Notes: generated by a model from the letters alone, not told the origin. A stretch of 64,000 nucleotides of DNA from an uncultured Gammaproteobacteria bacterium (GCA_964626205.1 CAZVED010000001.1:961-64960), one strand, 5' to 3'. Counted from the stretch's first letter, positions 2,457 to 26,730 are shown. Numbers and translations: made by a program.

Positions 2457-3173
2457 ATGACGCGCATCGATCCGCAAGGACCGGGCGTCCCGCTCCGGGA
2501 TGGCTCTGCCGGAACCACCTCGCGCGCGAGTGGTGTCCGCGTATGGGGGTGTGGCGGATGCGCGCTCCTGTTCTTGTTCGCGAGCGCGTTCGCCGTGTTC
2601 GCGGCAGTGTATGTCGTGGCGAAGGTCGGCGCCGTTCGCGTGCCGGTGCTGTCACAGGTGGTATATCGTCCGGTGGACCCCGTTCGGGACGTGGCTGAGC
2701 TATCAGGCTATTCCGTGCAGGACGTGCTCGCATCAGTCGGAGCCCGTGCGCGTTTTAACGCCGGAACCGGCGAAATCTCGTCTTTCATCGGCGAGGAAGA
2801 GCTGACGACGCTCGTCGCGAAGGGTCTCCGTGAGACAGGGGACGGGACGTCATCCTTGGACGATGTCCAGGTCGCTATCGGTAGGGACGGTCTTGAGTTC
2901 TCTGGGACGCTTGCCGCATGGGATGGTGGTACCTTGCCGGTCATCATCCGCGCGACGCCTTCCGTGAAGGATGGCGCGCTCGTGATTGATGTCGCGCGCG
3001 TGGCACTCGGGTCGCTCGAATTGCCGCGGTTCGCCGTGTCTGCGCTGTTCGCTGCTGCAGGGGAGTCTTTCGTCCGTGCGATGAATGAGGCGCTGGCGGA
3101 CGTGGGAAGACTGCGCGGGATCGTTTTGGAGGAGGGGAGGATGAATATACGTCTTTCACCGCACGCACAATGA
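2457..3173 (+). CDS. hypothetical protein with N-terminal TM anchor
   Basis: ORF with one TM (ALLFLFASAFAVFAAVYVVAKV); no antisense gene; stop overlaps next start (ATGA at 3170). Confidence 0.4.
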   Translation: MTRIDPQGPGVPLRDGSAGTTSRASGVRVWGCGGCALLFLFASAFAVFAAVYVVAKVGAVRVPVLSQVVYRPVDPVRDVAELSGYSVQDVLASVGARARFNAGTGEISSFIGEEELTTLVAKGLRETGDGTSSLDDVQVAIGRDGLEFSGTLAAWDGGTLPVIIRATPSVKDGALVIDVARVALGSLELPRFAVSALFAAAGESFVRAMNEALADVGRLRGIVLEEGRMNIRLSPHAQ

Positions 3174-3994
3174 CGCCGATTACTGTCGATAAACGAGGAA
3201 AATTTCCGGAATTCGTCCGTTCGGCGATTCCTGGCACGACGGCACTTCTTGTCGTCGCGGGATTCCTGTTCACGGAACGCATTCCCGTGCTGGATGTTGA
3301 TGTGAAGGAAGCGTTACTGCTTCTTCCTGCTGCGTATGTCGTCGCGGTCATTGCTGCCGCAGTCGTCATCTTGCATCGTCGAGGGACGGGACTTCGGGAG
3401 ATTGCGCGGGAATCCGCAACGGCCGTCTTGCTCGGTGTTGGTGCGTACGGTCATTTTCTCATTACGGGAAGTCGTTTTGCGCGGCTCGCCATCCTCGCCG
3501 TCGTCGCCGTGCTCCTCGTCATGTATCTCCGGGAAATCGCCTATGCGGAACGCGTCGGTCATGACGAGGAGGACGTCCGGGCGTTTGCGGCGTTCAGCGC
3601 AGCGCTGCATGCGCTCATCGCGTTCTTCCTTTCCGCGACCGCTTTCGCTTTCGTGAGTCTTTTACAGGCGCCTGCATGGCCGCTCGCGCTTGCCATCGGT
3701 GCCGTCACCGTGTTTCTGACGAAAGAGGTCTTGCGCCGTCATGGCGTTACCGCAGGAACGTTGTCGATCAGTATTGTCTGCGGTGTGCTCGCCACTGAGG
3801 CGTTTTGGGGCATCGCGGCACTCCCGACTCCGTTCGTGGCGAATGCCGCCGTCTTTACGATTCTTGTCGCCGTCGCGCAGCAAGTCGTCCTTCGCTCCAT
3901 GCGCCCGACGGAGCCGCAGTCGGCACTTCGACGTCTCGTCGTCGTATCGGCTATACTGATAGTGATACTCTTGGTAACCGCACGTTGGCGGTAA
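3170..3994 (+). CDS. polytopic integral membrane protein, unknown function
   Basis: about 7 hydrophobic helices across 274 aa; translationally coupled to the upstream ORF. Confidence 0.5.
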   Translation: MTPITVDKRGKFPEFVRSAIPGTTALLVVAGFLFTERIPVLDVDVKEALLLLPAAYVVAVIAAAVVILHRRGTGLREIARESATAVLLGVGAYGHFLITGSRFARLAILAVVAVLLVMYLREIAYAERVGHDEEDVRAFAAFSAALHALIAFFLSATAFAFVSLLQAPAWPLALAIGAVTVFLTKEVLRRHGVTAGTLSISIVCGVLATEAFWGIAALPTPFVANAAVFTILVAVAQQVVLRSMRPTEPQSALRRLVVVSAILIVILLVTARWR

Positions 3995-5206: not shown

Positions 5207-5851
5207 ATGCAAGAAGCCCAATACGTCGGCATGCTCCTGCTCGGATGGAAGCGCATCCTCGCTTTCGCTATCGTTTCCGCGCTCGTTGGCGGCGCGTTGA
5301 GCTTCCTGTTCCCGCTGCAGTACAGCTCCACGACACGTCTGCTCATCATTCAGCGCCAACTTTCGGGAGCGGATCCGTATACCGCCATCAAGGCGTCGGA
5401 GCGCATTTCGGACAACCTTTCCCAGGCCATCTATACGACCTCGTTCTTCGACAAGGTTCTTGAGACGGACTTCGACATCGACCGCACGGTATTCAAGGCT
5501 GACGAGCATAAGCGCCGCAAGCAGTGGGCGCAGATGATCGGTACGCAGGTCATGCGCGGGTCCGGCATGATCGTGCTCACCGTGTATCATGTCGACAAGG
5601 AGCAGGCCACGCAGATTGCGCGCGCCGTTGCGTATGTGCTCACGACCGAGGGGTGGCAGTATGTCGGCGGGGGAGACCTCGAGGTAAAGATCGTCGATCA
5701 GCCACTCCAGTCCCGCTTCCCGGTGAAGCCGAACATTCCGGCGAACGTGCTCATGGGCTTCGCACTCGGTCTCATTGCCGGTTCCGGGTATGTGCTTATG
5801 ACGAGTCAAAAGAAGGGGTTGTTCGGCATTCCGACACGCGAGACCTTTTAA
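5207..5851 (+). CDS. Wzz/chain-length-determinant-like membrane protein
   Basis: N-terminal LLGWKRILAFAIVSALVGGALSFLF TM with a Wzz-type start; second TM near the C-terminus (GFALGLIAGSGYVLM); soluble domain between. Confidence 0.45.
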   Translation: MQEAQYVGMLLLGWKRILAFAIVSALVGGALSFLFPLQYSSTTRLLIIQRQLSGADPYTAIKASERISDNLSQAIYTTSFFDKVLETDFDIDRTVFKADEHKRRKQWAQMIGTQVMRGSGMIVLTVYHVDKEQATQIARAVAYVLTTEGWQYVGGGDLEVKIVDQPLQSRFPVKPNIPANVLMGFALGLIAGSGYVLMTSQKKGLFGIPTRETF

Positions 5852-5880
5852 GCTCAGTCGAGCTCAAATAAGGAAGAAAT

Positions 5881-5908
5881 AAGCTCAGCCACATCGGCTG
5901 AGCTTATT
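5881..5908 (+). terminator. rho-independent terminator
   Basis: AAGCTCAGCC-acatc-GGCTGAGCTTATTCT hairpin after the stop at 5851. Confidence 0.5.
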
Positions 5909-5922
5909 CTGTACCAGCTTTT

Positions 5923-6020
5923 TGTCATTGCGAGTGGGACTGTACTCAGTCCCCGAAGCAATCTTTATTCATGAGGGGAGGGATTGCTTCGGGGTCGAGT
6001 ACGACCCACTCGCAATGACA
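5923..6020. repeat. family-B palindromic element (two inverted arms GTCATTGCGAG..CCGAAGCAATC around a 17-bp core)
   Basis: TGTCATTGCGAGTGGG...CCCCGAAGCAATC / GGATTGCTTCGGGG...CCCACTCGCAATGACA; same arm sequence at 18662, 19031, 19162, 21097 and 21286. Confidence 0.7.
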
Positions 6021-6032
6021 AGTTGAGTGGGT

Positions 6033-6090
6033 TAAGCTCAGAAGCTTGTCCGGCAGTATTGACAAAACCGTGTGTTCATGCTATAGTCGC
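6033..6090 (+). promoter_or_regulatory. sigma-70-type promoter module (TTGACA-17-TATAGT) with conserved upstream box TAAGCTCAGAAGCTTGTCCGGCAGT
   Basis: TTGACA at 6059-6064, 17-nt spacer, TATAGT at 6082-6087; the whole roughly 55-bp module is duplicated at 7656-7713. Confidence 0.5.
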
Positions 6091-6287
6091 AAGTTCATTG
6101 AAGCACGGAAACCGTCTGGTGAACCGCGATGTCGCCTCCTCCTAGTCGTCGCGGACTCATCAGCCGGTTTCCGGTGCTGCAAGGCATCGGTGGTGTTTTC
6201 ATCGGTTCGAGGATAGTCCTCGGCCGACCATGATGTGATTTGCCCGGACGGGCTTTGTTTGCCCGATGAGGGCGGAGGGTACTGAAC

Positions 6288-7478
6288 ATGAAGACGAACG
6301 TGTTGGTCCTGGTGGTTTCCTGCGTGCTCATGGCGATTGCCGCTCCCGCGATGGCGGACGAGCAAGCGCCTGTCGCGACAAGTCTCGCCGCGGAGTTCAC
6401 TCCCGAGCAGATCCGCAAGATCTGTCGGGACAATGGCTACGCCGTACGTATCGGCAACGCGCATCTCGAAGGTGGCGAAGCGGGATTCCCCGCAGCGCGC
6501 CCCGAGAACATGACGCCGGCTGCGACGGCCACGGCAACTGCGACCGTTTCGACGGGAGCAGAGAACTGCGGCGAGTGCTGCGATCGGCTGCAAAGCCAGA
6601 TCAACGCGCTCAAGGATGGTCTCGCGCGCTTCCGTGGGGAACGCGAGCGTCTCGAACGCCGTGTCATGCTGCTCGAGCGTAATCCGCGCCATGCGGATGC
6701 AGCGGCCTCCGTCCGCGTCGACCTCTCGGAAGTGAATGCTGCGCAAGCCGCATTCGTCGCCGAGGTGAACGCGCGTCTCGAGAGCGAGTTCGGTCGCATC
6801 AACGAGCGGTTCGCACGCGTGAAGCGCGTGAACGCTCGGCAGGATAGCGAGCTGCAGGCCTTGCGGGACGTCAATTCCCGTCAGGAGATCGCAATCGGCG
6901 TCATTGCCGATAACGATCACGTGCAGGACGCGCTCCTCGATGCGCAACACGACGTCGACCAGATGCAGAACGAGGAGATCTCGGATCTGCGCCGCGAACG
7001 AAAGTACGCGGAAGTCGGACTGAACGTCGGTGTCCTGACCCTCGCGGGCTGGGATTACACCAACGTGTCCGGCATGGTCGGCGGTCAGCTCGCGCTTCGT
7101 GTGGGCGGACGGTGGTACCTCATGGGTGCTCCGTCGCTGCTCATCACGGGCGGCAACCGTCCGTTCGGTGCCACGTTCCAACTCGGAGTCGGCTACGACC
7201 TCGTGGAGGACCGCGACAACAACGGCATCGTGGATTCGTCCTATGCCGCGGCGTCCGTCGAGTTCGGTGGCATGCTGACCTCCACGCTGATGAACAATCA
7301 GCTGGAAGGGAAGTACGTGACCGTCGAACCGACAGTCGGACTCGTGGTCCGGTTCGGGAACGGCTTCCGCGCTGGCGGGTACGTGCACGGCGGTCCTCGG
7401 ACCGATGTGAACGGCAACCTCGCTGCGACGATCGGAGGTATCCTGAACCTCGGCTACGACTTCGGCTCTCGTCACTGA
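6288..7478 (+). CDS. secreted coiled-coil protein with C-terminal Gly-rich beta domain
   Basis: signal peptide MKTNVLVLVVSCVLMAIAAPAMA; central heptad-like region (ERLERRVMLLERN..., NARLESEFGRINERFARVKRVNARQDSELQALRD); C-terminal Gly/aromatic-rich beta-like region; strong promoter upstream and terminator downstream. Confidence 0.6.
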   Translation: MKTNVLVLVVSCVLMAIAAPAMADEQAPVATSLAAEFTPEQIRKICRDNGYAVRIGNAHLEGGEAGFPAARPENMTPAATATATATVSTGAENCGECCDRLQSQINALKDGLARFRGERERLERRVMLLERNPRHADAAASVRVDLSEVNAAQAAFVAEVNARLESEFGRINERFARVKRVNARQDSELQALRDVNSRQEIAIGVIADNDHVQDALLDAQHDVDQMQNEEISDLRRERKYAEVGLNVGVLTLAGWDYTNVSGMVGGQLALRVGGRWYLMGAPSLLITGGNRPFGATFQLGVGYDLVEDRDNNGIVDSSYAAASVEFGGMLTSTLMNNQLEGKYVTVEPTVGLVVRFGNGFRAGGYVHGGPRTDVNGNLAATIGGILNLGYDFGSRH

Positions 7479-7520
7479 GAGCCGACGGAGGGGCGGTAAG
7501 CCCCTCCACACACTTCTTCC

Positions 7521-7553
7521 GGCAGCCTCTTCGTGAGGCTGCCGTTTGATTTT
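7521..7553 (+). terminator. rho-independent terminator
   Basis: GGCAGCCTC-ttcg-tGAGGCTGCC followed by GTTTGATTTT. Confidence 0.6.
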
Positions 7554-7633
7554 AAGCTGGATGCGGGTACCAAAATAAGGCGAAAACGAGGAATAAGCGG
7601 GAGGAAATAGGCTGGATGCGGGTACCAGCTTAA
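7552..7633 (-). repeat. family-A REP/BIME-like element (copy 1, reverse orientation)
   Basis: TTAAGCTGGATGCGGGTACC ... GGAAATAGGCTGGATGCGGGTACCAGCTTAA; reverse complement of the copies at 16551, 26753 and 28189. Confidence 0.8.
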
Positions 7634-7655
7634 ATATCTAAGCGAGCTTATCTTT

Positions 7656-7713
7656 TAAGCTCAAAAGTCTGTCTGGCAGTCTTGACAAACACCACGATTT
7701 ATGCTATAGTCAT
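7656..7713 (+). promoter_or_regulatory. sigma-70-type promoter module (TTGACA-17-TATAGT) with conserved upstream box, paralogue of 6033-6090
   Basis: TAAGCTCAAAAGTCTGTCTGGCAGTCTTGACA at 7656-7688, 17-nt spacer, TATAGT at 7705-7710. Confidence 0.5.
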
Positions 7714-7850
7714 CCGTTCAGTGAGAGGCCCTTGTCGGGAGTCTCGCAGAACACGAAGTGTGGTCTTTCCAAGTGAATCTCACGATGTCGGCCACGGTGG
7801 TCGATGTCTCAGGTTTTGATGCCTTCGGGCTTTTGCAACGGGAGATAGCA

Positions 7851-9023
7851 ATGAACAAGCACTGGGTGATTCTGGGTTTCTTGGTTCTCGGTCTCTCCGC
7901 CTGTGTCGAAGACACGGGTGGTAAGGACGGCATGAACGGCATCGACGGCATGAACGGCGACGCCGGCCCGCAAGGCGAGCCTGGCGAAGACGGCACGAAC
8001 GGCCGCGACGGCACCGACGGTGAAGACGGTCAGAACGGCACGGACGGTACCAACGGTACCGACGGTGTCGATGGTCAGGACGGGCGTGACGGCGAAGACG
8101 GCACGGATGGTACCGACGGTACCGACGGTCGCGACGGCACGGACGGTCAGGACGGCCGCGACGGAACGACGACCATCGTCATCTGTGGTGATCACGAATG
8201 TGACACGCAGAACGGCGAGAACGTCAGCAACTGCGCCATCGACTGCGCTTCGACTCCGGCTCCGTTCTGCGGCGACAACAGCTGCAACAACGGTGAGACG
8301 CACGCGACCTGCTCTGCAGATTGCGATGCGCCTCCGGTCGACCCTCAGGCACCCTACTGCGGCGACGCGTCGTGTAACAACGGCGAGACGCCCAGCAGCT
8401 GCCCGGACGACTGCGGCACCTGCGGTGATGGAAGCTGCAACAACGGCGAAGATCACCTCCTGTGCCCGGACGACTGCGAAGCGCCCGTGGTGACCGAGAC
8501 GTACGCTGGCCCGTTCAAGATGTATCGTGAGCGCCTGACGGACGGTTCGTACCTCTGCTCGATCGGGGTCAACCCGAACTACGCGAGCGGCGCAGCCAAC
8601 AACCAGATCGTCGGAGAAGGCGCAAGCTTCCTCTCGAACTGGGAGTCGGGCTCATCGAGCCAGATCCTGGCCTACCAGAACGGCGGCATCGAGTCGGACG
8701 GATACGTTCGCTTCGAGCTTCCGCGCGATAGCCAGCCAATCGGCACGTCCACGATTCGCTTCTCGTACCGTGGCTGGAATCCCCAGTCGCACAAGTACGA
8801 GTACGCGCAGTACGGCGACGCGGACACGCAGCTCGCGCGCATGACGGACGAGAGCCTCTCGATGGTGTACTGCTTCCAGTACGACCCGTCGAAGTCCTCG
8901 TACGGCTGCTCGGGTCGCATGACCTACGAGGTGTTCGCCAACCCGAACACCAACAAGAAGGACTGTCGGCTGACCGCAGCCGGTAACGCCCAAGTTGCCA
9001 ACGACCTCGTCGTCAGCAACTGA
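7851..9023 (+). CDS. collagen-like triple-helix-repeat lipoprotein with three Cys-rich repeats and a C-terminal globular domain
   Basis: lipobox LVLGLSAC; about 29 uninterrupted G-X-Y triplets (GKDGMNGIDGMNGDAGPQGEPGEDG...GRDG); three repeats CGD(N/A/G)SCNNGE(T/D)H..C..DC; start placed at ATG 7851, preferred over the ORF-track start 7758. Confidence 0.7.
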   Translation: MNKHWVILGFLVLGLSACVEDTGGKDGMNGIDGMNGDAGPQGEPGEDGTNGRDGTDGEDGQNGTDGTNGTDGVDGQDGRDGEDGTDGTDGTDGRDGTDGQDGRDGTTTIVICGDHECDTQNGENVSNCAIDCASTPAPFCGDNSCNNGETHATCSADCDAPPVDPQAPYCGDASCNNGETPSSCPDDCGTCGDGSCNNGEDHLLCPDDCEAPVVTETYAGPFKMYRERLTDGSYLCSIGVNPNYASGAANNQIVGEGASFLSNWESGSSSQILAYQNGGIESDGYVRFELPRDSQPIGTSTIRFSYRGWNPQSHKYEYAQYGDADTQLARMTDESLSMVYCFQYDPSKSSYGCSGRMTYEVFANPNTNKKDCRLTAAGNAQVANDLVVSN

Positions 9024-12433: not shown

Positions 12434-13585
12434 TTATGCGTTGGCGGTTGCCGCGGTCGCTTCCTCATTGAGGAGGTGGACGTAGAGCGTTTCGACTTCG
12501 GCGACGATGTCGTTCCAGTGGTAGTCGCGGAGGACGAACTCGCGTGCAGCCGCCCCCTTTTCTGCGGCGAACTCGGGGTTCGCGAGGAGGTGACGGAGTT
12601 TGCGGGCGAGGTCCTTCACGCTACCACTCGTGAACGCGAGGCCGTGCTGGCGGGTGACTTCCATGATTTCCGGGATGTCGGAAGCAAGGACGGCTTTGCC
12701 GTAGCTCATCGCTTCGAGTACTGCGATCGGCAGACCCTCGGATTCCGAAGGGTGCACGATGGCGTACGCGTTGGCGAAGAGCTGGTGCAACCGCTCGCCG
12801 TTCTGGTAGCCAGTGAAGACGATGTCCGGATGATCGCCGGCGAGCTTCTTGCACTCCGCGACGTAGTCGTCCGTGAAGGCGGTGTCGCCGACGATGACGA
12901 GCTTCTTGCCGTGGGTCGCGCTCATGGCGTGGAGCTGCTGGTAGGCGTCAATGAGGTAGTGAGCGCCCTTGTGCCGCACGAGGCGGGACACCATGGCGAT
13001 GTACTTTCCTTTCTCCAGGCCAAAGTCGGCAAGGAGGTCATCGTTCGCTTCTTCCGGTGCGCTGATGCCGTTGGGGATGTAGCGCGCGTTCATGGAGAAG
13101 CTGTTGTTGCAGTAGGACTGCAGCGTGCGCGAGACCGCGATGGTCTCGTGCGCGAAGGTGCATGCGGCGCGCTCGCCGAGGCTGAGCGCGAGGCGCGCGA
13201 CGAAGCCCCACTTCTGGTGGTGGCGGTCGATACAGTGGAAGGTCGTCACAACCTTGATGCGCGGCGCGAAAACGCGCGGAATCCATGAGAGGAGGGAAGG
13301 GCCGACACCGTGGTAATGGATGATGTCGACGCCGTCCATGATGGCGCGGATGGTGGAGGTAAACGTGTGCACAATCGCATCGAGGTGCTTGGTGGCGATG
13401 GTGGGGGTGACGACGACACGCACGCCTGGAGCGAACTCCGTGCGCGCAGGTGCGTACCAGCCGCGAGCGAAGGCGGTGACGGTGTGGCCGGCAGCGCCAA
13501 GACGGACGGCAAGTGCTTCCACGTGTCGTTCGATGCCGCCGAAGCGGGTCGGGATACCTTTTTGGCCAATCATGGCGATATGCAT
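12434..13585 (-). CDS. glycosyltransferase family 4
   Basis: MHIAMIGQKGIPTRFGGIERHVEALAVRL (GT4 N-terminus) and ESEGLPIAVLEAMSYGKAVLASDIPEIMEV. Confidence 0.7.
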   Translation of the reverse strand: MHIAMIGQKGIPTRFGGIERHVEALAVRLGAAGHTVTAFARGWYAPARTEFAPGVRVVVTPTIATKHLDAIVHTFTSTIRAIMDGVDIIHYHGVGPSLLSWIPRVFAPRIKVVTTFHCIDRHHQKWGFVARLALSLGERAACTFAHETIAVSRTLQSYCNNSFSMNARYIPNGISAPEEANDDLLADFGLEKGKYIAMVSRLVRHKGAHYLIDAYQQLHAMSATHGKKLVIVGDTAFTDDYVAECKKLAGDHPDIVFTGYQNGERLHQLFANAYAIVHPSESEGLPIAVLEAMSYGKAVLASDIPEIMEVTRQHGLAFTSGSVKDLARKLRHLLANPEFAAEKGAAAREFVLRDYHWNDIVAEVETLYVHLLNEEATAATANA

Positions 13586-13687
13586 ACAGTCGATGTTTTT
13601 CGCTTATTTCAGCGATGAAACGGTATCTAGGGAACATCGGACTATAGCATAAAAACCACCCTTTGTCAAGGGTGGCGGGGAAACGAT

Positions 13688-13762
13688 TTAAGCTGGACAC
13701 GGGTACCGAAATAGGGCGGAAATGAAGAATGGGCGGGAGGAAATAGGCTGGATGCGGGTACA
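13688..13762 (+). repeat. family-A REP/BIME-like element (copy 2, left flank of RAYT)
   Basis: TTAAGCTGGACACGGGTACC-gaaatagggcggaaatgaagaatgggcgggaggaaata-GGCTGGATGCGGGTAC. Confidence 0.8.
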
Positions 13763-13815: not shown

Positions 13816-14370
13816 ATGGCAAGAAAGCTTCGACAATTACATACGGGAGGGGTGTATCATGTCATTTATCGTGGCAATAACCGCGCGGCGATTTTTGCTG
13901 ATGCGGAAGATTCGGAATATTTTCTTGCGTTATTACGTCGGCTAAAGCGAAGAGATGGTATGCGCGTGTTTCACTATGTGGTCATGACGAATCATGTGCA
14001 TATGGTGGTGATGCCAGAAGCGACGAAAGAATTGTCGCGAATCATGCAGGGATTGGCGCGGGCATACACGGCGTACTACAAACGCAAGTACGGTTTTGTC
14101 GGACAGCTATGGCAGGGGAGATACTTTAGCGCGCTCATCGACACCGATGCGTATCTGTTGACGTGCGGCATCTATATCGAGCTCAATCCGGTCCGTGCGG
14201 GAATGGTCGATGATCCGATGCAGTATCCATGGTCCAGCGCGCATGCGTACGCAACTGAGAAGACAGACGCGATTGTTGACGAGAGTCCGTTGTATGCAGG
14301 ATTAGGCATGACGTATGAAGCGCGGCGGAAGTCATATCGACATTTGTTGAATATGTGGATGAAAAAATAA
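13816..14370 (+). CDS. REP-associated tyrosine transposase (RAYT, IS200/IS605-like Y1 HuH transposase)
   Basis: HuH motif NHVHMVV and catalytic-Tyr motif YIELNPVRAGMV (compare E. coli YafM HMHCIW / YIYINPVKHGWV); 184 aa; flanked by REP copies. Confidence 0.85.
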   Translation: MARKLRQLHTGGVYHVIYRGNNRAAIFADAEDSEYFLALLRRLKRRDGMRVFHYVVMTNHVHMVVMPEATKELSRIMQGLARAYTAYYKRKYGFVGQLWQGRYFSALIDTDAYLLTCGIYIELNPVRAGMVDDPMQYPWSSAHAYATEKTDAIVDESPLYAGLGMTYEARRKSYRHLLNMWMKK

Positions 14371-14452
14371 ATAGGCTGGATGCGGGTACCAGCCTATTTC
14401 CTCCCGCCTATTCTTCATTTCCGCCCTATTTCGGTACCCGTGTCCAGCTTAA
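14371..14452 (-). repeat. family-A REP/BIME-like element (copy 3, right flank of RAYT)
   Basis: GGCTGGATGCGGGTACCAGCC-tatttcctcccgcctattcttcatttccgccctatttc-GGTACCCGTGTCCAGCTTAA; contains the stop codon of the convergent gene 14449..16521. Confidence 0.8.
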
Positions 14453-16521: not shown

Positions 16522-16550
16522 ATATATGCCGATAGTGTAGCAGAGTGCAT

Positions 16551-16632
16551 TTAAGCTGGTACCCGCATCCAGCCTATTTCCTCCCGCCTATTCTTCATTT
16601 CCGCCTTATTCCGGTACCCGTGTCCAGCTTAA
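16551..16632 (+). repeat. family-A REP/BIME-like element (copy 4)
   Basis: TTAAGCTGGTACCCGCATCCAGCC-tatttcctcccgcctattcttcatttccgccttattcc-GGTACCCGTGTCCAGCTTAA between two minus-strand genes. Confidence 0.8.
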
Positions 16633-16636
16633 ACCG

Positions 16637-18670
16637 TCACTGCCCAACGGACGAGAGCGTGAAGACGTCCGTGGTAAGCGTCACGACTTCGTCTTTTCCG
16701 TCGCCGTCGATGTCTGCCGAGGAGACGCGCACGCCAGTCCGACTTCGTGCGTCTCCGGCAAAGAAGCCGAGGCTGAGTGCGCGTCCGTACTTGTCGAAGA
16801 CGCGCACGTGCGGACCGCCGCCCGGCCCAGCTCCCGTGACGATTTCGTCTTTACCATCGCCGTCCAGGTCGCCGGCTGCCACATGGACGCCGCCGCGGAA
16901 GGCCGGGTCGTAGGCGAAGAAACCAGGATTGAGGAGCCGCCCGTTCTTGTCGAAGATGCGCACGTGCGGACCGCCGCCAACACCAGCACCGGCAATAATC
17001 TCGTGCGCGCCATTGCCGTCGATATCGCCCAGGGCGATGTTGACGCCGCCACGGAAGCGGGGGTCGTAGGCGAAGAAGCCGGGGTTGATGAGCACGCCAT
17101 CCATATTAAAGACGCGGATCTGCGGGCCGGCACCAGAGCCGGTACCGGTGACGATTTCCATCTTACCGTCGCCCTCAAGATCGCCGACCGCGAAGTTGAT
17201 GCCGAGGCGATAGTTTTCGCCGTACGGCTTGAAGGACGTCTTGAGCCGGCCGTCTGCCCAGTAGATGCGAATCTCCGAGTTCGTCGCAACGACCTTCTCG
17301 AGTGTCCCGGAGACGCCGTCGATATCCGTCACGACCACGTTCGTACCACCGTCAAACGGACCTTCATAGGCAAAGAAGCCGTTTCGGACTTGTGCGCCAG
17401 CCCCGGAATAGACGCGCGCAAAGGCGCCGTTCACGAACGTTCCGCCGACAATGCGCTCTACCGGGCGGGTGAGGACGATGCCGTCGAGGCCGGAGAGCGT
17501 CACCGAGGTGACGATGCTGCCGTCGTTGACGCGCGGGTCTTGTGTGCCGCTGAGCTTTTCCATTTCGATGCCGAGGTCGACGGTTTGCGCACGGTCCGTG
17601 GAGTTCACAAGAACGGTCCCGTTCGTGAAGTCGCGTCGGTACACGCCGCGCTGGAGGTTCCGAGCGTTGGGGGAGAGGAGGTTCACCGGGCCCGAGAGCG
17701 GACGTCCGAGATGGACGCTGTACTCATCGTAGTGCCAGAGCTGGCCGTGGTTCTGGTCGCCGAAGTCGTAGCTGAAGAAGCCTTGGCCGAGGAGTGCGGT
17801 CGTGAGCGTGTAGCGGACATTCGCGTAGTCGGCGTTATTGCCGGAGTTGGACGTATTGCCGTTCACGACGAAGACCGGCGTGTAGCCCACACGATCGTGG
17901 AGGTCGAGGTAGTTTTGCGTGACACCCTCCCACGTACCGCCCGCTTCCCACGGGGTAGGGTAGGTTTCGAACATGCGTCCGTTCACGTGTGGCTGGAGCT
18001 CGCCGGTGGAATCGCCGTTCGTCACGATGACGGCGCTCGCACCCAAAAGGTCGCGGGTGTTCTTGAGCAGGTTCACGGTCGCGCGCTTCCATGCCGTGTC
18101 CGCGAGGTGCGCGTCCGTCCGTGCGCCGGAGCGGTGGATGTCGATGTTGCCGCCGTTCACCCAAGAGATGTTCGCGGAGAGCTCATCGTAGAAGACACCG
18201 TCCCAGAGTCCGGTCGCCATGATCTCGTCTTTCACGAACTGCGGGAGGACGGTCTGCCAGCTCCCGACGGTGTTGATGACCGTCGTTCCCGGCCAGACGG
18301 AGACTGCGCGACCGGACGGGTCGCGGAGCCACATGTCGTCGGTGATGTGCGTGCGGAGTTTCTGGTGGAGCGGATCGACCCAGATGCTGTTCCATGACTT
18401 CGATGGGACGTAGGCGAGGATGAGGACGTTCGGATTCAGGCGGCGGAGTTCGTCGAACATCGCACGGTTGTACACCTGCGCTTCAGCCGGGAAGATGAGG
18501 AGGTCGTAGCGCGCGAGCTGCGGGTAGAGCGCCGGGGTGATGTCCGTTCCAGCACGGAGATAGTAGTTCGCCGTCCGCACGAACTTGTCGTCCGGCGTTT
18601 TGATGGCGGCATCTGCCGACTGTGCGCCGAAGAGCCCCATCGCGATGAGGGGGGCCATGAGCAGTGTCAT
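16637..18670 (-). CDS. secreted glycoside-hydrolase-like (TIM-barrel GHL-type) protein with C-terminal FG-GAP/beta-propeller repeats
   Basis: signal peptide MTLLMAPLIAMGLFGAQSADA; N-terminal roughly 400-aa domain resembling glycoside-hydrolase-like families; four C-terminal repeats FRGGV..A.GD.DGDG..EIVTGAG.GGGPHVR.F; the ORF-track start 18730 lies inside a family-B repeat, so start set at M21 (alternative 18658). Confidence 0.6.
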   Translation of the reverse strand: MTLLMAPLIAMGLFGAQSADAAIKTPDDKFVRTANYYLRAGTDITPALYPQLARYDLLIFPAEAQVYNRAMFDELRRLNPNVLILAYVPSKSWNSIWVDPLHQKLRTHITDDMWLRDPSGRAVSVWPGTTVINTVGSWQTVLPQFVKDEIMATGLWDGVFYDELSANISWVNGGNIDIHRSGARTDAHLADTAWKRATVNLLKNTRDLLGASAVIVTNGDSTGELQPHVNGRMFETYPTPWEAGGTWEGVTQNYLDLHDRVGYTPVFVVNGNTSNSGNNADYANVRYTLTTALLGQGFFSYDFGDQNHGQLWHYDEYSVHLGRPLSGPVNLLSPNARNLQRGVYRRDFTNGTVLVNSTDRAQTVDLGIEMEKLSGTQDPRVNDGSIVTSVTLSGLDGIVLTRPVERIVGGTFVNGAFARVYSGAGAQVRNGFFAYEGPFDGGTNVVVTDIDGVSGTLEKVVATNSEIRIYWADGRLKTSFKPYGENYRLGINFAVGDLEGDGKMEIVTGTGSGAGPQIRVFNMDGVLINPGFFAYDPRFRGGVNIALGDIDGNGAHEIIAGAGVGGGPHVRIFDKNGRLLNPGFFAYDPAFRGGVHVAAGDLDGDGKDEIVTGAGPGGGPHVRVFDKYGRALSLGFFAGDARSRTGVRVSSADIDGDGKDEVVTLTTDVFTLSSVGQ

Positions 18671-18716
18671 TGCGAGGGTCGACGTACTCGTCGGCCCGAA
18701 GCAATCCCGTTGTGGC
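18662..18716 (+). repeat. family-B palindromic arm (single arm)
   Basis: GTCATTGCGAGGGTCGACGTACTCGTCGGCCCGAAGCAATCCCGTTGTGG overlapping the 5' end of gene 16637..18670. Confidence 0.65.
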
Positions 18717-19020: not shown

Positions 19021-19030
19021 GTGAGAGGTG

Positions 19031-19200
19031 TGTCATTGCGAGGCCTGAAAGGCCGAAGCAACCCCGTTGAATCAGGAGAAGTATATCACGTTAAACTGAA
19101 TGCTTCATACCACGAAGATCCTTATTTGTCAAGAATAGTGTAGACAAATATCTTGAAATTGGACGGGATTGCTTCGGGCCTAAAGGCCCTCGCAATGACA
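19031..19200. repeat. family-B composite element: two inverted arms flanking a 95-bp AT-rich core
   Basis: TGTCATTGCGAGGCCTGAAAGGCCGAAGCAACCCC (19031-19065) ... GGGATTGCTTCGGGCCTAAAGGCCCTCGCAATGACA (19163-19198); core much lower in GC than its surroundings. Confidence 0.7.
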
Positions 19201-21096: not shown

Positions 21097-21191
21097 TGTC
21101 ATTGCGAGCGGGCCGTACCCGGCCCCGAAGCAATCCCGAACATGAACGGGATTGCCGCGGGCCGACGAGTACGTCGACCCTCGCAATGACA
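21097..21191. repeat. family-B palindromic element (two inverted arms, 9-bp core)
   Basis: TGTCATTGCGAGCGGGCCGTACCCGGCCCCGAAGCAATCCCG-aacatgaac-GGGATTGCCGCGGGCC...CCCTCGCAATGACA, immediately after the stop at 21096. Confidence 0.7.
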
Positions 21192-21285
21192 AAGTAGGGA
21201 AGCCGTCGCCACGCCCACAGTGCCACAGAGTAGGAAAGGTTCCTTCACAATCGAGTCCAGCCCCCACACCGTTTCCCGAGTGATG

Positions 21286-21323
21286 TGTCATTGCGAGGCC
21301 CGAAGGGCCGAAGCAATCCCGTC
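21286..21323 (+). repeat. family-B palindromic arm (single arm)
   Basis: TGTCATTGCGAGGCCCGAAGGGCCGAAGCAATCCCGTC. Confidence 0.6.
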
Positions 21324-21531
21324 GAAGACTCGGAGAACGATGCGGGGTCTGGCGCCCGTATAAAGGACCGATGATGCTTTCGGTCCTCATATGGTCGCTA
21401 TGGCCTGTATATCCAGACTCTCCGCATGCCCACCGAAAGGTCGAATCCACGCAAGTGGATGTGGCATGTTCACACCAAAGGGTTTCCGCAATTTAAGCGG
21501 ACCTCCTACTACTAGAAAAGGAAAATAAGAT

Positions 21532-24500: not shown

Positions 24501-24945
24501 CAGCGCTGCCGCGAACGTCCTCACCCTTACGGTCTCGGCCGACACGGCTGGTCCGGTGGCGTTCCAGACCCTCGAGTTCACGGTGAACGACGACACGAAC
24601 CTCGGTGTCCTCGCCTGCTCGGGCACTGAGTCCAGCGTCTTCACGGCCAGCAACAACCAGGTTGTTGTCGGTAACTGTGACCTCACTGGCTCGTCTCTCA
24701 CCATCGACTTCACCGACGAACAGGTGGTCAACGCAGGAACCGCGAAGTCCTACTACCTCATGCTCAACATCTCGGGCACGGCAGATGGCGACTCGGTCAG
24801 CGTTGTTCTCGAGAGCACTGGCTTCGGCTGGTCTGATTACTCGGCTGTCGGTCACGACACGACGGGTATGACGGGTGCTGACTGGTTCACGGATGGTGAC
24901 TACGTCAAGTACCTTCCGTCCACGGCTCGCACGCTCTCCCGCTAA
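21532..24945 (+). CDS. large secreted surface protein: conserved ~110-aa N-terminal domain (YYxGxDGKRYxFPN...DPKVYAV...LRWI) plus tandem Ig-like beta-sandwich repeats
   Basis: signal peptide; N-terminal domain shared with 25412, 26892 and 28316 genes; more than 900 aa of Thr/Ser/Gly/Val-rich repeats; good RBS (AAAAGGAAAATAAGATATG). Confidence 0.65.
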   Translation: MTDVMKMSRKAFSIGVVALTVAWSIGLSALLAPLASSAAVSGSLIKASMPAVYYMGSDGKRYVFPNEKTYFSWYADFSAVQVITDSELASLPIGGNVTYRPGVRMVKIQTDPKVYAVDSHGVLRWITSEAAAVALYGSAWNTMVHDVSDAFFTNYTVGADVSGPSDFNPGAATAAATSINQDKNLSTGSAAGLSVSKASDSPMGATLPLGAMGVNFVKFNVMNGGSSAAMLSSLTVMRSGPGYASDFDAVYVYRGSERLTTGRSINSSSNEATFSGLNLSIPAGGSVSLWIAGDISTSAFAGNVNALSVSSVMVGSSSVSGTPVMGSSFSLAGATVGEIDIERTGGSTLANIKAGGLAQRVASFRLTAGNQEDLDVHSVALTFGGNLNRAHLSNFVLKQSGSTLASIPSISDKDLVTFAFSSPMFMEKGAQRTFDVFADVNAGARSGDEVAFYVDVNADVRAMGRTYGFGVMTTIDATFDASTDQVATVEAGKLTTTFNGPASKDVLANGKDVELFNFTVAAQANLEFREVTLALDTNGGDPLNTVVSDIKIVDTANGAIVAGPTDGGASCVLTANTGTCAFSETWNLASGQSRTFKVTADINSAANGDEIRVTLGSGQLFANSKVRNLDNNTYLGASDMVPSTVLGGNIHTVTDSGLTVGNASTPVAQTYIKGSSDIALAGWSFTAADAAPVRLNSITVDCTADDDSTVNEKDELCNSVVQTVRLMNGATQVGVTASPDSSDSIRFDNLNLTINGGQSMTLVLMGTLSSSAPTTTYLGFEIEDVDVTDADGGTVSDSGVPTAMSALMTVAAQGSVTLVNAPVDIESEPSLVIGGSSNVVLGKYRMTAQDEELRLSKVQFSVATPAGISTVSLHDGATLVGGPVSVVGGLATFSSVNFVVPKDTSKTLTVKANLNTVSPTTSGPQPMDPVTITMLDANLEIRGTSAGSGTTIVSAGTGDPLAGNLAAYGKFIVKSKPTVEVVSGDKVLVNSAAANVLTLTVSADTAGPVAFQTLEFTVNDDTNLGVLACSGTESSVFTASNNQVVVGNCDLTGSSLTIDFTDEQVVNAGTAKSYYLMLNISGTADGDSVSVVLESTGFGWSDYSAVGHDTTGMTGADWFTDGDYVKYLPSTARTLSR

Positions 24946-25054
24946 TTCCTTTCTCGCCTTGGAGCTCAGGTTCGCCTGAGCTCCGGGCAGAACGGTTTTC
25001 CGGAACGTGCTCCCGCTCGTGTACGAACCGGACAGCAGGAAAGCAAAACAAACA

Positions 25055-25087
25055 CCCCGCCTTTACTGGCGGGGTTTTGTTTTTTGG
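25055..25087 (+). terminator. rho-independent terminator
   Basis: CCCCGCC-tttact-GGCGGGG followed by TTTTGTTTTTT. Confidence 0.6.
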
Positions 25088-25170
25088 GGTCTTGTAGGTT
25101 TTTCGCGCATCACCTAGGTTCCGCATCGCCTCGACATCCAATCTTATTCTTCTGTACACTAACGTCATCT

Positions 25171-25398: not shown

Positions 25399-25411
25399 CA
25401 AAACCCCGCAG

Positions 25412-26698: not shown

Positions 26699-26700
26699 CA

Positions 26701-26730
26701 AGGAGCGGCCCGGCCGCTCCTTTTGCTTTT
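26701..26730 (+). terminator. rho-independent terminator
   Basis: GGAGCGGCC-cg-GCCGCTCC then TTTTGCTTTT directly after the stop at 26698. Confidence 0.6.

What the first reader, a model, noticed from the sequence alone, without database searches (positions are those of the whole stretch)
6033..7713. Duplicated near-consensus sigma-70 promoter modules with a conserved 25-nt upstream box in front of two secreted-protein genes
The two sequences 6033-6090 and 7656-7713 are about 85% identical over 58 bp. Their shared pattern is TAAGCTCA(G/A)AAG(C/T)(T/C)TGTC(C/T)GGCAGT(A/C)TTGACAAA...(C/T)ATGCTATAGTC. Each contains TTGACA, an exact 17-nt spacer and TATAGT, which is unusually close to the sigma-70 consensus for a 65% GC genome. 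They sit upstream of the coiled-coil secreted protein (6288) and the collagen-like lipoprotein (7851). The conserved box immediately upstream of the -35 could be an UP element or a shared regulator site. A similar ATGCTATACT -10 region occurs at 1963-1972.
Basis: seen in the sequence. Interest (0 to 1): 0.55.

Follow-up and report, generated by a model that had tools for sequence, protein, structure and literature searches.

The report
Conserved strong promoters of envelope genes
These are two real-looking, evolutionarily conserved strong promoters, with a partly conserved upstream box, in front of two cell-envelope genes of an uncultured Patescibacteria (CPR) bacterium; this is ordinary biology, although the first promoter also drives a conserved, previously undescribed structured RNA leader.

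Summary
The sequence is as described, with two corrections. The pair is 43/58 identical (74%, not 85%); identity is 86% only over the first 35 nt. The window is 60.7% G+C, not 65%. A third core copy without the box lies at 13669-13641 (-).

The genome is Patescibacteria/Parcubacteria-like. In eight syntenic loci from relatives, P1 keeps TTGACA, a 17-nt spacer, TGc, TATAGT (TATATT in two), 5 nt, then GTT(C/A). The protein it drives has drifted to 21-27% identity, so these are very probably genuine housekeeping-sigma promoters.

Most of the P1/P2 similarity is this lineage's optimal promoter consensus. Only the upstream box is special:
- Two blocks, AAGCTC (-59..-54) and YTGYC (-47..-43), recur at a nearly fixed position (within 2 nt) in six promoters of five genomes.
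- The box is too G+C-rich for a classical UP element. Its function (regulator site or alpha-CTD contact) is unproven.
- Its TTTAAGCT word is also the terminus of REPIN-like repeats belonging to a neighbouring RAYT transposase.

P2 exists only in the closest relatives, so it is probably a copy of P1 placed before the lipoprotein gene.

The more novel item is the P1 leader. It is a covariation-supported long hairpin capped by a CCUCCUCCUUA loop that mimics the 16S 3' end, and it is absent from Rfam.

The parts
5207..5851 (+). wzz-like (chain-length determinant) gene upstream of P1. Its stop codon lies inside a third TTTTAAGCTCA word (5847-5857).
   Evidence: Pfam Wzz/GNVR. 212 homologs, named Parcubacteria/Patescibacteria/Uhrbacteria. 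Sequence read.
5877..5909 (+). wzz terminator-like hairpin, AATAAGCTCAGCC-N5-GGCTGAGCTTATT. It is built from the same TAAGCTCA word as the box.
   Evidence: -22 kcal/mol, z -6.4.
5921..6022 (.). Perfect ~100-nt hairpin made of two inverted copies of the dispersed TGTCATTGCGAG...GAAGCAATCC repeat. It lies 10 nt upstream of the P1 box.
   Evidence: -70 kcal/mol, z -11.9. Other copies are listed.
6032..6058 (+). P1 upstream box. It contains TTAAGCTCA (6032-6040; AAGCTC = -59..-54) and TTGTC (6046-6050 = -47..-43).
6059..6087 (+). P1 core promoter: -35 TTGACA 6059-6064, 17-nt spacer, extended -10 TGC 6079-6081, -10 TATAGT 6082-6087.
   Evidence: Orthologs in L003, L007, L008, L010, L011, L012 and L013.
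6093..6096 (+). Predicted P1 start region GTTC, with G6093 as +1. It is part of the conserved motif TATAGT-N5-GTT(C).
   Evidence: Present in all 13 promoters compared: GTTC in 10, with L007 GTTG, L011Px GTCG and L013 GTTA as the variants. Consistent with the Y-R-Y 'start' element (PMC12641261). Not measured.
6098..6182 (+). P1 leader long hairpin with apical loop CCUCCUCCU (6135-6143), which mimics the anti-Shine-Dalgarno 3' end of 16S rRNA.
   Evidence: Fold z -4.8. 33 pairs, 16 of them with compensatory changes. 91.9% paired, against 81.8% in shuffles (0/500) and 32-46% in slid controls. Present once per locus. No Rfam hit.
6171..6200 (+). Small hairpin CCGGTGCT-GCAA-GGCATCGG plus a weak U-tract. 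It overlaps the base of the long hairpin, so it is a possible attenuator or alternative fold.
   Evidence: Compensatory changes relative to L003.
6274..6279 (+). Shine-Dalgarno sequence GGAGGG of gene X.
   Evidence: Read. The surrounding 24 nt are identical in L003.
6288..7478 (+). Gene X, 396 aa: signal peptide, coiled coil (~95-209) and 8 C-terminal beta strands (241-391).
7487..7554 (+). G+C-rich hairpin after X (7487-7507), which is also present in distant relatives. It is followed by an intrinsic terminator (7520-7544 plus T-run) found only in the P2-bearing clade.
7550..7635 (-). 85-nt REPIN-like repeat with TTTAAGCTGG...CCAGCTTAAA termini, between the X terminator and the P2 box.
   Evidence: Its relation to the RAYT gene is shown.
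7655..7681 (+). P2 upstream box. It contains TTAAGCTCA (7655-7663) and CTGTC (7669-7673 = -47..-43). Its distal part is an imperfect 16-bp palindrome, CTTTTaAGCTcAAAAG (7652-7667).
7682..7710 (+). P2 core promoter: -35 7682-7687, TGC 7702-7704, -10 TATAGT 7705-7710. The predicted start is G7716.
   Evidence: Orthologs are L002 1375 and L003 5532.
7716..7850 (+). P2 leader. It has a 5'-terminal hairpin paired from +1 (7716-7752) and a conserved 11-bp hairpin (7784-7808).
   Evidence: 30 pairs, 5 of them compensatory, in 3 sequences.
7851..9023 (+). Gene Y: lipoprotein with a collagen-like G-X-Y region, Cys-rich repeats and a conserved C-terminal domain.
13641..13669 (-). P3: a third copy of the same core (TTGACAAA-N9-TTTATGCTATAGT) without the box. 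The predicted start is G13635. It drives the GT4 gene at 12434-13585 (-). A REPIN end (CCAGCTTAAA) occupies the box position.
13816..14370 (+). REP-associated tyrosine transposase gene, flanked by inverted 85-nt repeats (13683-13761 and 14367-14452).
   Evidence: Pfam Y1_Tnp 3e-15. NCBIfam NF047646 scores 79 bits against a cutoff of 80. The arms are 98% complementary (I10).

Best explanation
P1 (6059-6087) and P2 (7682-7710) are functional promoters for the housekeeping sigma factor of a Patescibacteria (Parcubacteria-like) bacterium. They lie in a conserved cell-envelope locus with the gene order PDZ protease, wzz, X, Y, wzy, GT4.

P1 is ancient. It drives gene X (signal peptide, coiled coil, 8-stranded beta domain) through a ~195-nt structured leader.

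In more distant relatives the lipoprotein gene Y follows X after ~100 nt, with only a G+C hairpin between them, and appears to be co-transcribed. In the window's clade a terminator and a second promoter, P2, separate the two genes.

P2 resembles P1 from about -62 to +9. I infer it is an old copy of the P1 module that lets Y be expressed independently but in the same way.

Most shared positions (TTGACAaaa, a T-rich -20..-17, TGc, TATAGT, N5, GTTC) are simply the clade's optimal core promoter and start element.

The part specific to P1 and P2 is the box. Two conserved blocks, AAGCTC at -59..-54 and YTGYC at -47..-43, keep a nearly fixed register (within 2 nt). They most likely act at the DNA level as a contact site for a shared activator or for the RNA polymerase alpha-CTD, giving X and Y matched high expression.

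What is shown: sequence, spacing, orthologous conservation and the leader RNA structures. What is inferred: transcription initiation at G6093 and G7716, the duplication origin of P2, and any protein binding to the box.
For: Core motifs and chance:
- The core motifs and their excess over chance are shown.
- In 64 kb only P1, P2 and P3 carry the full extended pattern.

Orthologous conservation of P1:
- It is kept in L003, L007, L008/L009, L010, L011, L012 and L013, whose wzz proteins are 67-89% identical to the window's.
- TTGACA and the 17-nt spacer are invariant. The -10 is TATAGT, or TATATT in L011 and L013. GTT(C/A) always follows 5 nt after the -10.
- Protein X in L007, L008, L010, L011 and L012 is only 21-27% identical to the window's.

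Orthologous conservation of P2:
- It is kept in L002 and L003, where X is 46-48% identical. TTTAAGCTCA and the core are invariant, while the DNA between the terminator and the box is unalignable.

Box register:
- TTAAGCTCA starts 27-29 nt before the -35 in winP1, winP2, L003P2, L002P2 and L008P1.
- L013 P1 has TCAAGCTCG...TTGTCC in the same register, 18/27 identical to winP1.

The transcribed strand is under RNA-level selection from the predicted +1:
- P1 hairpin: 16 of 33 pairs are compensatory, and 0/500 shuffles reach the observed value.
- P2 has a 5'-terminal hairpin paired from +1.

Other support:
- Upstream terminators (5877-5909; 7520-7544) mean the genes need their own promoters.
- The X-Y spacer of L007, L008, L010 and L011 has no promoter.
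- The Y proteins are homologous lipoproteins.
- The start motif fits the published Y-R-Y 'start' element (PMC12641261).
Against: - No transcription start, RNA-seq or reporter data exist for this organism.
- The P1/P2 spacer identity (9/17) is no higher than between unrelated promoters of the clade. No neutral positions therefore testify to duplication, and shared selection could produce the same similarity.
- The distal box is absent from P1 in L003, L007, L010, L011 and L012, so it is not essential for P1 activity.
- The box occurs nowhere else in 64 kb, so no regulon is visible.
- No candidate regulator was identified.
- TTTAAGCT is also the terminal word of the REPIN-like repeats; 9 of its 12 occurrences are REPIN termini.
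Confidence: 0.7

Rival explanations
1. The box has nothing to do with transcription. Its conserved TTTAAGCT(CA) end belongs to the genome's REP/REPIN system: a target or cleavage-site word, or a decayed REP unit, of the RAYT transposase encoded at 13816-14370. It sits next to the promoters only because REP elements accumulate in the same intergenic spots.
For: - 9 of the 12 TTAAGCT words in the window are termini of the 85-nt repeat, 2 are the boxes, and 1 lies at the wzz stop codon next to a REP-like terminator.
- The repeat flanks a RAYT gene in inverted orientation (I10).
- REP-like units abut the box in the window, L002 and L003.
- At P3 a REPIN end occupies the box position.
- The wzz terminators are built from the same AATAAGCT... 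words.
Against: - Beyond the 8-mer, the box is not significantly similar to the REPIN end: 8/20 matches.
- The box has no REP hairpin.
- The box keeps a nearly fixed distance (27-29 nt) from the -35 in five genomes. The REP loop sequences, and in L002 the repeats flanking the RAYT, differ between these genomes.
- The second block, YTGYC, is not part of the REP terminus in the relatives.
Confidence: 0.2
2. P1 and P2 are not duplicates. They are independently evolved promoters that converged because both are selected for maximal strength (the same optimal core) and for the same regulator site.
For: - All positions shared by P1 and P2 are also conserved among orthologs, so they are constrained. 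The spacers are no more alike than background, 9/17.
- P3 reached the same core (TTTATGCTATAGTC-N4-GTTC), although its orthologs in L007 and L008 have different -10 regions.
Against: - The similarity covers ~70 contiguous nt, including the initial transcribed GTTCAnTGA. That motif is shared by P1 and P2 of the window's clade and L007 (GTTCATTA), but not by the P1 orthologs of L008, L010, L011 and L012.
- P2 appears, together with a new terminator, only in one clade.
- The nucleotides just upstream of the -35 are genome-specific but shared between P1 and P2: GGCAGT in the window and GTCAGCC in L003. This hints at conversion or co-evolution.
Confidence: 0.3
3. P1 mainly makes a ~100-nt small RNA: the long hairpin with the anti-SD loop, ended by the 6171-6190 hairpin and U-tract. 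This RNA acts in trans on ribosome-binding sites. Expression of X is only read-through.
For: - A terminator-like hairpin and U-tract follow the long hairpin and are conserved with compensatory changes in L003.
- The loop is complementary to any strong Shine-Dalgarno sequence. The hairpin is better conserved than gene X.
Against: - The U-tracts are weak or interrupted in all orthologs.
- No other promoter lies between the hairpin and X, and the element is always coupled to gene X, once per locus.
- The RBS region of X is conserved and contiguous with the leader.
Confidence: 0.12
4. The resemblance is chance similarity of two A+T-richer intergenic stretches.
For: None beyond the short length of the sequences.
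Against: - 43/58 identity is 8.8 SD above the window mean, and 0 chance matches are expected for either pattern.
- Both promoters are conserved in orthologous positions.
Confidence: 0.01

Closest known systems
Sigma-70/sigma-A housekeeping promoters with an extended -10 (TGn) and the Y-R-Y 'start' element (PMC12641261)
   Same: TTGACA, a 17-nt spacer, TGc, TATAGT (5/6 of TATAAT), a T-rich spacer end, and a G-T start 6 nt after the -10, preceded by a pyrimidine in 8 of 11 cases.
   Different: The start is predicted 6 nt after the -10 rather than the 7-8 nt that is optimal in E. coli. No experimental start-site data exist for any Patescibacteria member in the library I searched.
Promoter reuse, or 'putative mobile promoters' (Matus-Garcia, Nijveen and van Passel 2012; PMC3575422)
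   Same: A ~70-nt promoter-bearing segment is repeated upstream of two non-homologous genes in one genome.
   Different: It fails their operational threshold of >=80% identity over >=50 nt; the best 50-nt window here is 37/50. The copy is old and vertically inherited (present in L002 and L003), and it lies only 1.6 kb from its source.
Class I activator sites and UP elements upstream of the -35
   Same: A conserved element at about -60 to -43, at a fixed distance from the -35. The distal half is relatively A+T-rich and partly palindromic in P2 (CTTTTaAGCTcAAAAG) and in L003 P2 (CCTTTaAGCTcAAAGG).
   Different: It is 48-56% A+T, whereas UP elements are generally strongly A+T-rich (my recollection, not checked here). 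The promoter-proximal half is G+C-rich, the palindrome is missing in P1, and no cognate factor is known.
REP/REPIN elements with a RAYT transposase, and Correia/ERIC-type repeats that carry promoters (PMC3116915, PMC3337134, PMC3575422)
   Same: The neighbouring 85-nt repeats have inverted termini, fold end to end, flank a RAYT gene in inverted orientation, sit at gene ends or promoters, and share TTTAAGCT with the box.
   Different: The box itself has no hairpin, is present in only two copies, and is positionally conserved across genomes rather than dispersed.
Long structured 5' leaders of highly expressed envelope-protein mRNAs (E. coli ompA 5' stem-loops; S-layer gene leaders). This comparison is from my own knowledge and was not retrieved here.
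   Same: Very strong promoter, a 135-195-nt leader, a stable hairpin at or near the 5' end (P2: paired from +1), and a downstream abundant surface-protein-like gene whose C-terminal domain resembles the OmpA barrel.
   Different: The invariant CCUCCUCCUUA apical loop has no counterpart in those leaders, and there is no Rfam match.

Membership tests
Sigma-70-type (housekeeping) promoter | -35 hexamer close to TTGACA and -10 hexamer close to TATAAT (A at position 2, T at position 6), 16-18 nt apart | tested here: met
   6/6 and 5/6 matches with a 17-nt spacer at P1, P2 and P3.
Sigma-70-type (housekeeping) promoter | Auxiliary elements: extended -10 TGn; purine start 5-9 nt after the -10 in a Y-R-Y context | tested here: met
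   TGC lies immediately 5' of the -10. G-T follows 6 nt after the -10 in all 13 promoters compared. Literature definition.
Sigma-70-type (housekeeping) promoter | Purifying selection on hexamers and spacing in orthologous intergenic regions | tested here: met
   Invariant alignment columns across 11 sequences from 8 genomes, while the flanks diverge. Protein X is only 21-27% identical.
Sigma-70-type (housekeeping) promoter | Transcription actually initiates there (mapped 5' triphosphate end; RNA polymerase open complex) | not testable with these tools
   No transcriptome or biochemical data are available. The only indirect support is that covarying RNA structure starts at or near the predicted +1.
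UP element | Strongly A+T-rich tract between about -40 and -60 (proximal and distal subsites) | tested here: not met
   The box is 12/25 (P1) and 14/25 (P2) A+T. Positions -46..-36 read GTCCGGCAGTA (read).
UP element | Bound by the RNA polymerase alpha-CTD and stimulates transcription | not testable with these tools
   Requires in vitro transcription or footprinting.
Putative mobile promoter (PMP) | >=80% identity over >=50 nt upstream of genes | tested here: not met
   The best 50-nt window is 37/50 = 74%. 86% is reached only over 35 nt. Criterion from PMC3575422.
Putative mobile promoter (PMP) | Downstream coding sequences are not paralogous | tested here: met
   X (coiled coil plus beta domain) and Y (collagen-like lipoprotein) are unrelated.
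REP/REPIN repeat | Imperfect palindrome able to form a hairpin, present in many dispersed copies | tested here: not met
   The box has no hairpin arms and only 2 copies in 64 kb. By contrast, the 85-nt neighbours meet this with 6 copies and end-to-end pairing at z -2.4 to -4.0.
REP/REPIN repeat | Sequence relationship to the repeats that flank the genome's RAYT gene | tested here: inconclusive
   The box shares the terminal 8-mer TTTAAGCT with the REPIN ends. The remaining 20 nt match at 8/20, which is about chance. RAYT identified.
Operator of a dimeric transcription factor | Dyad symmetry, conserved across orthologs | tested here: inconclusive
   14/16 symmetric in winP2 and L003P2, with a symmetric change (CTTTT/AAAAG to CCTTT/AAAGG). 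It is weak in L002P2 and L008P1 and absent in winP1. Read.
Operator of a dimeric transcription factor | Identified cognate DNA-binding protein | not tested
   No regulator gene was identified next to the locus. A DUF5667 protein lies at 191-1873, and an ECF sigma factor lies upstream of its counterpart in L007.
Known structured RNA families (Rfam 15), for the leaders | Covariance-model match at or near the gathering score | tested here: not met
   No hit in the whole window at gathering thresholds. Only spurious miRNA-like or sRNA hits to other hairpins at E<=10 in 5800-7900.

The most novel reading that the evidence does not exclude
The P1 leader hairpin would be a new class of cis-regulatory RNA, specific to Parcubacteria-type Patescibacteria. 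Its invariant CCUCCUCCUUA loop mimics the 3' end of 16S rRNA. The proposed role is to gate translation or stability of the mRNA for an abundant OmpA-barrel-like envelope protein, for example by pairing with the gene's own Shine-Dalgarno sequence.

Together with the conserved upstream box, this would form a dedicated two-level control module for the X/Y envelope pair. It would also point to an unexpected beta-barrel envelope protein in a lineage usually regarded as monoderm (my assumption, not checked here).
Probability: 0.25. Interest if true: 0.65.

Novelty: new member of a known kind. Interest (0 to 1): 0.3.

Why it matters
Almost nothing is known experimentally about transcription signals in Patescibacteria (CPR), because few members are cultured. 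This locus gives a clean, phylogenetically footprinted example of what a strong promoter looks like there: TTGACAaaa, N7, tttaTGcTATAGT, N5, GTTC. That is useful for annotating genomes and for building expression tools.

The locus also shows one promoter module being reused for the neighbouring gene, and it identifies a short upstream box that could be tested as a regulator site.

The by-products may matter more than the promoters:
- a covariation-supported leader RNA with an anti-Shine-Dalgarno-like loop;
- a REPIN/RAYT system in a CPR genome;
- a predicted OmpA-like barrel in the protein that the promoter drives.

Tried and rejected
- **GTDB species-representative genomes.** I scanned for TTGACAAA-N9-TTYATGCTATAGTC. 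The only hit was an unrelated Oscillospiraceae contig, so the source genome and its close relatives are not in that collection.
- **JGI metagenome contigs.** I scanned for TTGACA-N17-TATAGTC-N4-GTTCANTG. The only hit was an unrelated rplM promoter.
- **IMG/VR.** I scanned for the loop motif GATACCTCCTCCTTATC. The only hit was an A+T-rich phage coding region.
- **Exact-protein lookup of gene X and its 100%-identical database entry.** This returned no contig, and cluster lookup gave no accession or name. The rest of the 143-kb source contig could therefore not be searched for more boxes.
- **Rfam and tRNA scans.** Nothing relevant.
- **Leader-peptide idea for CCUCCUCCU (Pro-Pro-Pro).** Rejected. 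The frame has a stop after 8 codons in the window, a different ORF in L003, and no start codon in L008 to L013, whereas the base-pair covariation fits an RNA structure.
- **DNA-uptake-sequence idea for TAAGCT words.** Rejected. TAAGCT occurs 21 times; my own composition-based estimate of the expected count is about 17. The words cluster only in intergenic repeats.
- **TIGR-Tas arrays (seen in a literature hit).** Rejected for the 85-nt repeats. They are dispersed and carry identical 'spacers', and they flank a RAYT gene.
- **Literature.** Searches for Patescibacteria promoter mapping and for the TGTCATTGCGAG repeat found nothing pertinent.
Full report
**1. Observation**

The two stretches are present as described. 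Sequences 6033-6057 and 7656-7680 both fit TAAGCTCARAAGYYTGTCYGGCAGT. Each is followed by TTGACA, a 17-nt spacer that ends in TGC (an extended -10), and TATAGT.

Neither pattern is expected by chance. The box pattern has 0.00 expected matches and the core pattern 0.01. The P1 58-mer matches P2 at 43/58. The window-wide mean is 14.3 +/- 3.2, and nothing unrelated exceeds 31.

- Identity is 74% over 58 nt. It is 86% only over the first 35 nt.
- The window is 60.7% G+C, not 65%.
- A third copy of the core, TTGACAAA-N9-TTTATGCTATAGTC-N4-GTTC, lies on the minus strand at 13669-13641. It sits before a GT4 glycosyltransferase gene and has no box.
- The similarity between P1 and P2 runs on to +9 (GTTCAnTGA).
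- ATGCTATACT at 1963-1972 is real. It has a weak -35 (ATGACG, 18-nt spacer).

**2. Organism and locus**

Pfam finds DUF5667, a PDZ protease, Wzz, Collagen, Wzy_C and GT4 genes around the site. The Wzz protein has 212 homologs. Those that carry names are from Parcubacteria, Patescibacteria or Uhrbacteria bacteria. The window is therefore from a high-G+C Patescibacteria (CPR) genome.

Gene X (6288-7478) has a signal peptide, a long predicted coiled coil and eight C-terminal beta strands. Gene Y (7851-9023) has a lipobox, 27 G-X-Y triplets, Cys-rich repeats and a C-terminal domain shared with the lipoprotein gene that follows X in relatives.

The gene order (three hypotheticals, PDZ protease, wzz, X, Y, wzy, GT4) is conserved in every related contig I could fetch.

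**3. Comparative evidence that these are promoters**

I obtained eight syntenic loci from relatives, using homologs of X and Wzz: L002, L003, L007, L008, L010, L011, L012 and L013. L009 is a second record of the same contig region as L008.

P1 is present in all seven loci that reach that region. In these:
- TTGACA and the 17-nt spacer are invariant.
- A T-rich spacer end and TGc (or TGg/TGt) precede the -10.
- The -10 is TATAGT, or TATATT in L011 and L013.
- GTT(C/A) follows exactly 5 nt later.

Across the same set, protein X has fallen to 21-27% identity with the window's X. The rest of the intergenic DNA cannot be aligned.

P2 is present in L002 and L003, where X is 46-48% identical. Its core and TTTAAGCTCA are invariant there.

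A looser scan of the relatives shows that TTGACA, 17 nt, (TGn)TAnnnT, N5, GT is the general promoter form in this lineage. The near-consensus character is therefore normal here, not exceptional. In the 64-kb window only P1, P2 and P3 have the full extended version.

The conserved G-T start, preceded by a pyrimidine in 8 of 11 cases, fits the published Y-R-Y 'start' element (PMC12641261). I therefore predict starts at G6093, G7716 and G13635 (minus strand).

Both genes are preceded by terminator-like hairpins (5877-5909 and 7520-7544), so each needs its own promoter.

**4. The transcripts**

Downstream of P1 the RNA is strongly structured (z -4.8). Aligning six orthologs gives a 33-pair hairpin (window 6098-6182) in which 16 pairs show compensatory changes.
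- 91.9% of cells are paired, against 81.8% in column shuffles (0 of 500 shuffles reach the observed value).
- Only 32-46% are paired when partners are slid by 1-3 columns.
- A seventh ortholog, L013, folds the same way.

The apical loop is CCUCCUCCU in the window and L003, and GAUACCUCCUCCUUAUC in the other five. That is the anti-Shine-Dalgarno sequence of the 16S rRNA 3' end. The motif occurs once per locus, always in this leader, and has no Rfam counterpart.

A reading as a leader peptide (Pro-Pro-Pro) is excluded by the lack of a conserved frame.

The P2 leader begins with a hairpin paired from nucleotide +1 (GUUC...GAAC) and contains a conserved 11-bp hairpin whose changes are all G-U/Watson-Crick interconversions.

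These structures show that the plus strand downstream of both predicted starts is under RNA-level selection. This is the best indirect evidence available for the direction and approximate position of transcription.

**5. The box**

Right-justified on the -35, two blocks recur:
- (T/C)AAGCTC(A/G), starting 27-29 nt upstream of the -35. It is present in winP1, winP2, L003P2, L002P2 and L008P1, and in L013P1 as TCAAGCTCG.
- YTGYC at 13-9 nt upstream. It is present in all of these, and also in L010, L011 and L012; L007 has GCGTC there.

With G6093 as +1, these blocks lie at -59..-54 and -47..-43.

Box identities are 22/27 (winP1-winP2), 21/27 (winP1-L003P2) and 22/27 (winP2-L003P2). L003P1 has replaced the distal part with a REP-like terminator palindrome.

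The box is only 48-56% A+T and its proximal half is G+C-rich, so it is not a canonical UP element. In winP2 and L003P2 the distal part is a 14/16 palindrome with a symmetric substitution, but winP1 lacks the symmetry.

The box occurs nowhere else in the window. No regulon can be defined from the data I could reach.

**6. Relation to repeats**

The intergenic regions around P1, P2 and P3 are crowded with repeats.

*An 85-nt element.* Its sequence is TTTAAGCTGG-N9-CCAGCC, a CT-rich core, GG-N9-CCAGCTTAAA. It occurs six times (7550-7635, 13683-13761, 14367-14452, 16549-16637, 26752-26843, 28188-28272) and its ends pair.

Two copies flank, in inverted orientation (98% complementary over 64 nt), a gene at 13816-14370. 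That gene hits Pfam Y1_Tnp (3e-15) and the NCBIfam REP-associated tyrosine transposase model (79 bits, cutoff 80). The L002 homolog scores 84 bits. These elements are therefore REPIN-like repeats with their RAYT (definitions: PMC3116915, PMC3337134).

*The link to the box.* Nine of the 12 TTAAGCT words in the window are REPIN termini. Two are the boxes, and one is at the wzz stop codon. Beyond this 8-mer the box matches the REPIN end at only 8/20 positions. The box keeps its register relative to the -35 in genomes whose REP loops, and in L002 the repeats flanking the RAYT, differ.

I conclude that the box is not simply a REP copy. A link remains open at about 0.2: for example, TTTAAGC could be a RAYT target word next to which REPs accumulate.

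**7. Origin of P2**

In L007, L008, L010 and L011 the lipoprotein gene follows X after about 100 nt. That spacer contains only a G+C hairpin and no promoter. In the window, L002 and L003, the same hairpin (7487-7507) is followed by a true terminator, repeats, and then P2.

P2 shares with the P1 of its own clade the box, the core and GTTCAnTGA. The P1 orthologs of L008, L010, L011 and L012 have other nucleotides after GTTC; L007 has GTTCATTA.

The nucleotides just before the -35 are genome-specific but shared by P1 and P2: GGCAGT in the window and GTCAGCC in L003. This hints at conversion or co-evolution with a factor.

On the other hand, spacer identity (9/17) is at background level. Duplication is therefore a reasonable inference, not a demonstration. 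By the published operational rule for 'putative mobile promoters' (>=80% over >=50 nt; PMC3575422), this pair does not qualify (37/50).

**8. Mechanism, stated with its uncertainty**

Probability that P1 and P2 are active housekeeping-sigma promoters: about 0.85. They would start at G6093 and G7716 and produce long leaders whose 5'-proximal hairpins probably stabilise the mRNAs, as in other envelope-protein genes. That comparison is from my own knowledge, not from a retrieved paper.

Probability that the box contributes to transcription: about 0.5. In that case I favour a shared activator site over an alpha-CTD contact. The rest of the probability goes to a REP-system relation or to no function.

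The anti-SD loop could pair with the Shine-Dalgarno sequence of X (GGAGGG, 6274-6279) to limit translation, or it could be a protein-binding or ribosome-binding site. This cannot be tested by covariation, because every Shine-Dalgarno sequence is complementary to it.

**9. Verdict**

The finding is real and its main reading is right, but it describes ordinary promoter biology in an under-studied phylum. I class it as a new member of a known kind and give it low to moderate interest.

The items that deserve follow-up are the leader RNA, the REPIN/RAYT system, and the OmpA-like barrel prediction for protein X. The Foldseek top hits are Ail, OmpA, OprF, OmpX and OmpW, with E about 1e-4. The model is of low overall confidence (pLDDT 55.8), rising to 70-80 in the strands.

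Noticed in passing
window 6098-6182 (loop 6135-6143); orthologs in L003, L008, L010, L011, L012, L013: A long 5'-leader hairpin whose apical loop is CCUCCUCCU(UA), a mimic of the 16S rRNA 3' end. 16 of its 33 pairs are compensatory across 6 sequences. It occurs once per locus, always before gene X, and has no Rfam match. It is a candidate new cis-regulatory RNA.
   Followed up: yes
window 7716-7752 and 7784-7808; L002 1409-1550; L003 5566-5704: The P2 leader starts with a hairpin paired from the predicted +1. It also has a conserved 11-bp hairpin whose changes are all G-U/Watson-Crick swaps.
   Followed up: partly
window 13816-14370 (+), with repeats at 7550-7635, 13683-13761, 14367-14452, 16549-16637, 26752-26843, 28188-28272: A REP-associated tyrosine transposase gene is flanked by inverted copies of an 85-nt repeat that occurs six times in 64 kb. 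This looks like a REPIN/RAYT system in a Patescibacteria genome. L002 has a RAYT (2814-3377, minus strand) with different flanking repeats (GTGACTGTCAC...).
   Followed up: partly
window 5921-6022; also 18665-18711, 19023-19071, 19159-19200, 21097-21191, 21278-21326; L006 4195-4250: A second dispersed repeat family, TGTCATTGCGAG...GAAGCAATCC. At 5921-6022 two inverted copies form a perfect ~100-nt hairpin (-70 kcal/mol, z -11.9) just upstream of the P1 box. A literature search for the sequence found nothing relevant.
   Followed up: partly
window 6288-7478 (protein X, residues 241-391): The C-terminal eight beta strands give Foldseek hits to 8-stranded outer-membrane barrels (Ail, OmpA, OprF, OmpX, OmpW, PagP; E about 1e-4, prob 1.0). 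This would be unexpected if, as I assume without having checked it here, this lineage is monoderm. The model is of low overall confidence (pLDDT 55.8, from a 3-sequence alignment). Several orthologs end in an aromatic residue.
   Followed up: partly
window 41209-41312 and 58709-58813: A 104-nt inverted-repeat pair (91-93% complementary) lies 17.4 kb apart. Each copy folds by itself into a -60 to -65 kcal/mol hairpin (z -5.5). One copy is next to rpmA (L27) and a class-V aminotransferase gene. Neither is in Rfam at gathering threshold.
   Followed up: partly
L007 10130-10180: Several tandem Shine-Dalgarno-like words (UAAGGAGGU, UAAGGAG, UAAGGAGGU) lie in the wzz 3' untranslated region of the one relative (L007) whose X leader lacks the anti-SD hairpin.
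   Followed up: no
window 13655-13676 (-): The -35 hexamer of P3 lies in the loop of an inverted repeat, CCACCC/GGGTGG, followed by a T-run. The terminator scan flags it. It could be a regulatory hairpin or the terminator of an upstream transcript.
   Followed up: no
L008 ~10900, L010 ~5160, L011 ~4990, L013 ~4320: A conserved single-stranded motif, CU(U/C)UACAAC, lies about 30 nt after the anti-SD hairpin. The window and L003 have GUUUUCAUCGG and GUUUCCAUGG at the corresponding position.
   Followed up: no
L005 (ends 163 nt after wzz), L006 (ends 131 nt after wzz), L002 (starts 64 nt before X): Contigs of three close relatives break inside the wzz-X intergenic region. This fits repeat-rich DNA (REP-like units, hairpins) that fragments assemblies. 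As a result, P1 of those genomes could not be examined.
   Followed up: no
window 21532-31192: Four neighbouring genes share 195-218-nt direct repeats at 60-72% identity (families D2, D3, D6), so they form a paralogous cluster. Two of them are each preceded by a REPIN copy followed 15 nt later by an extended -10-like TGnTAnACT.
   Followed up: no
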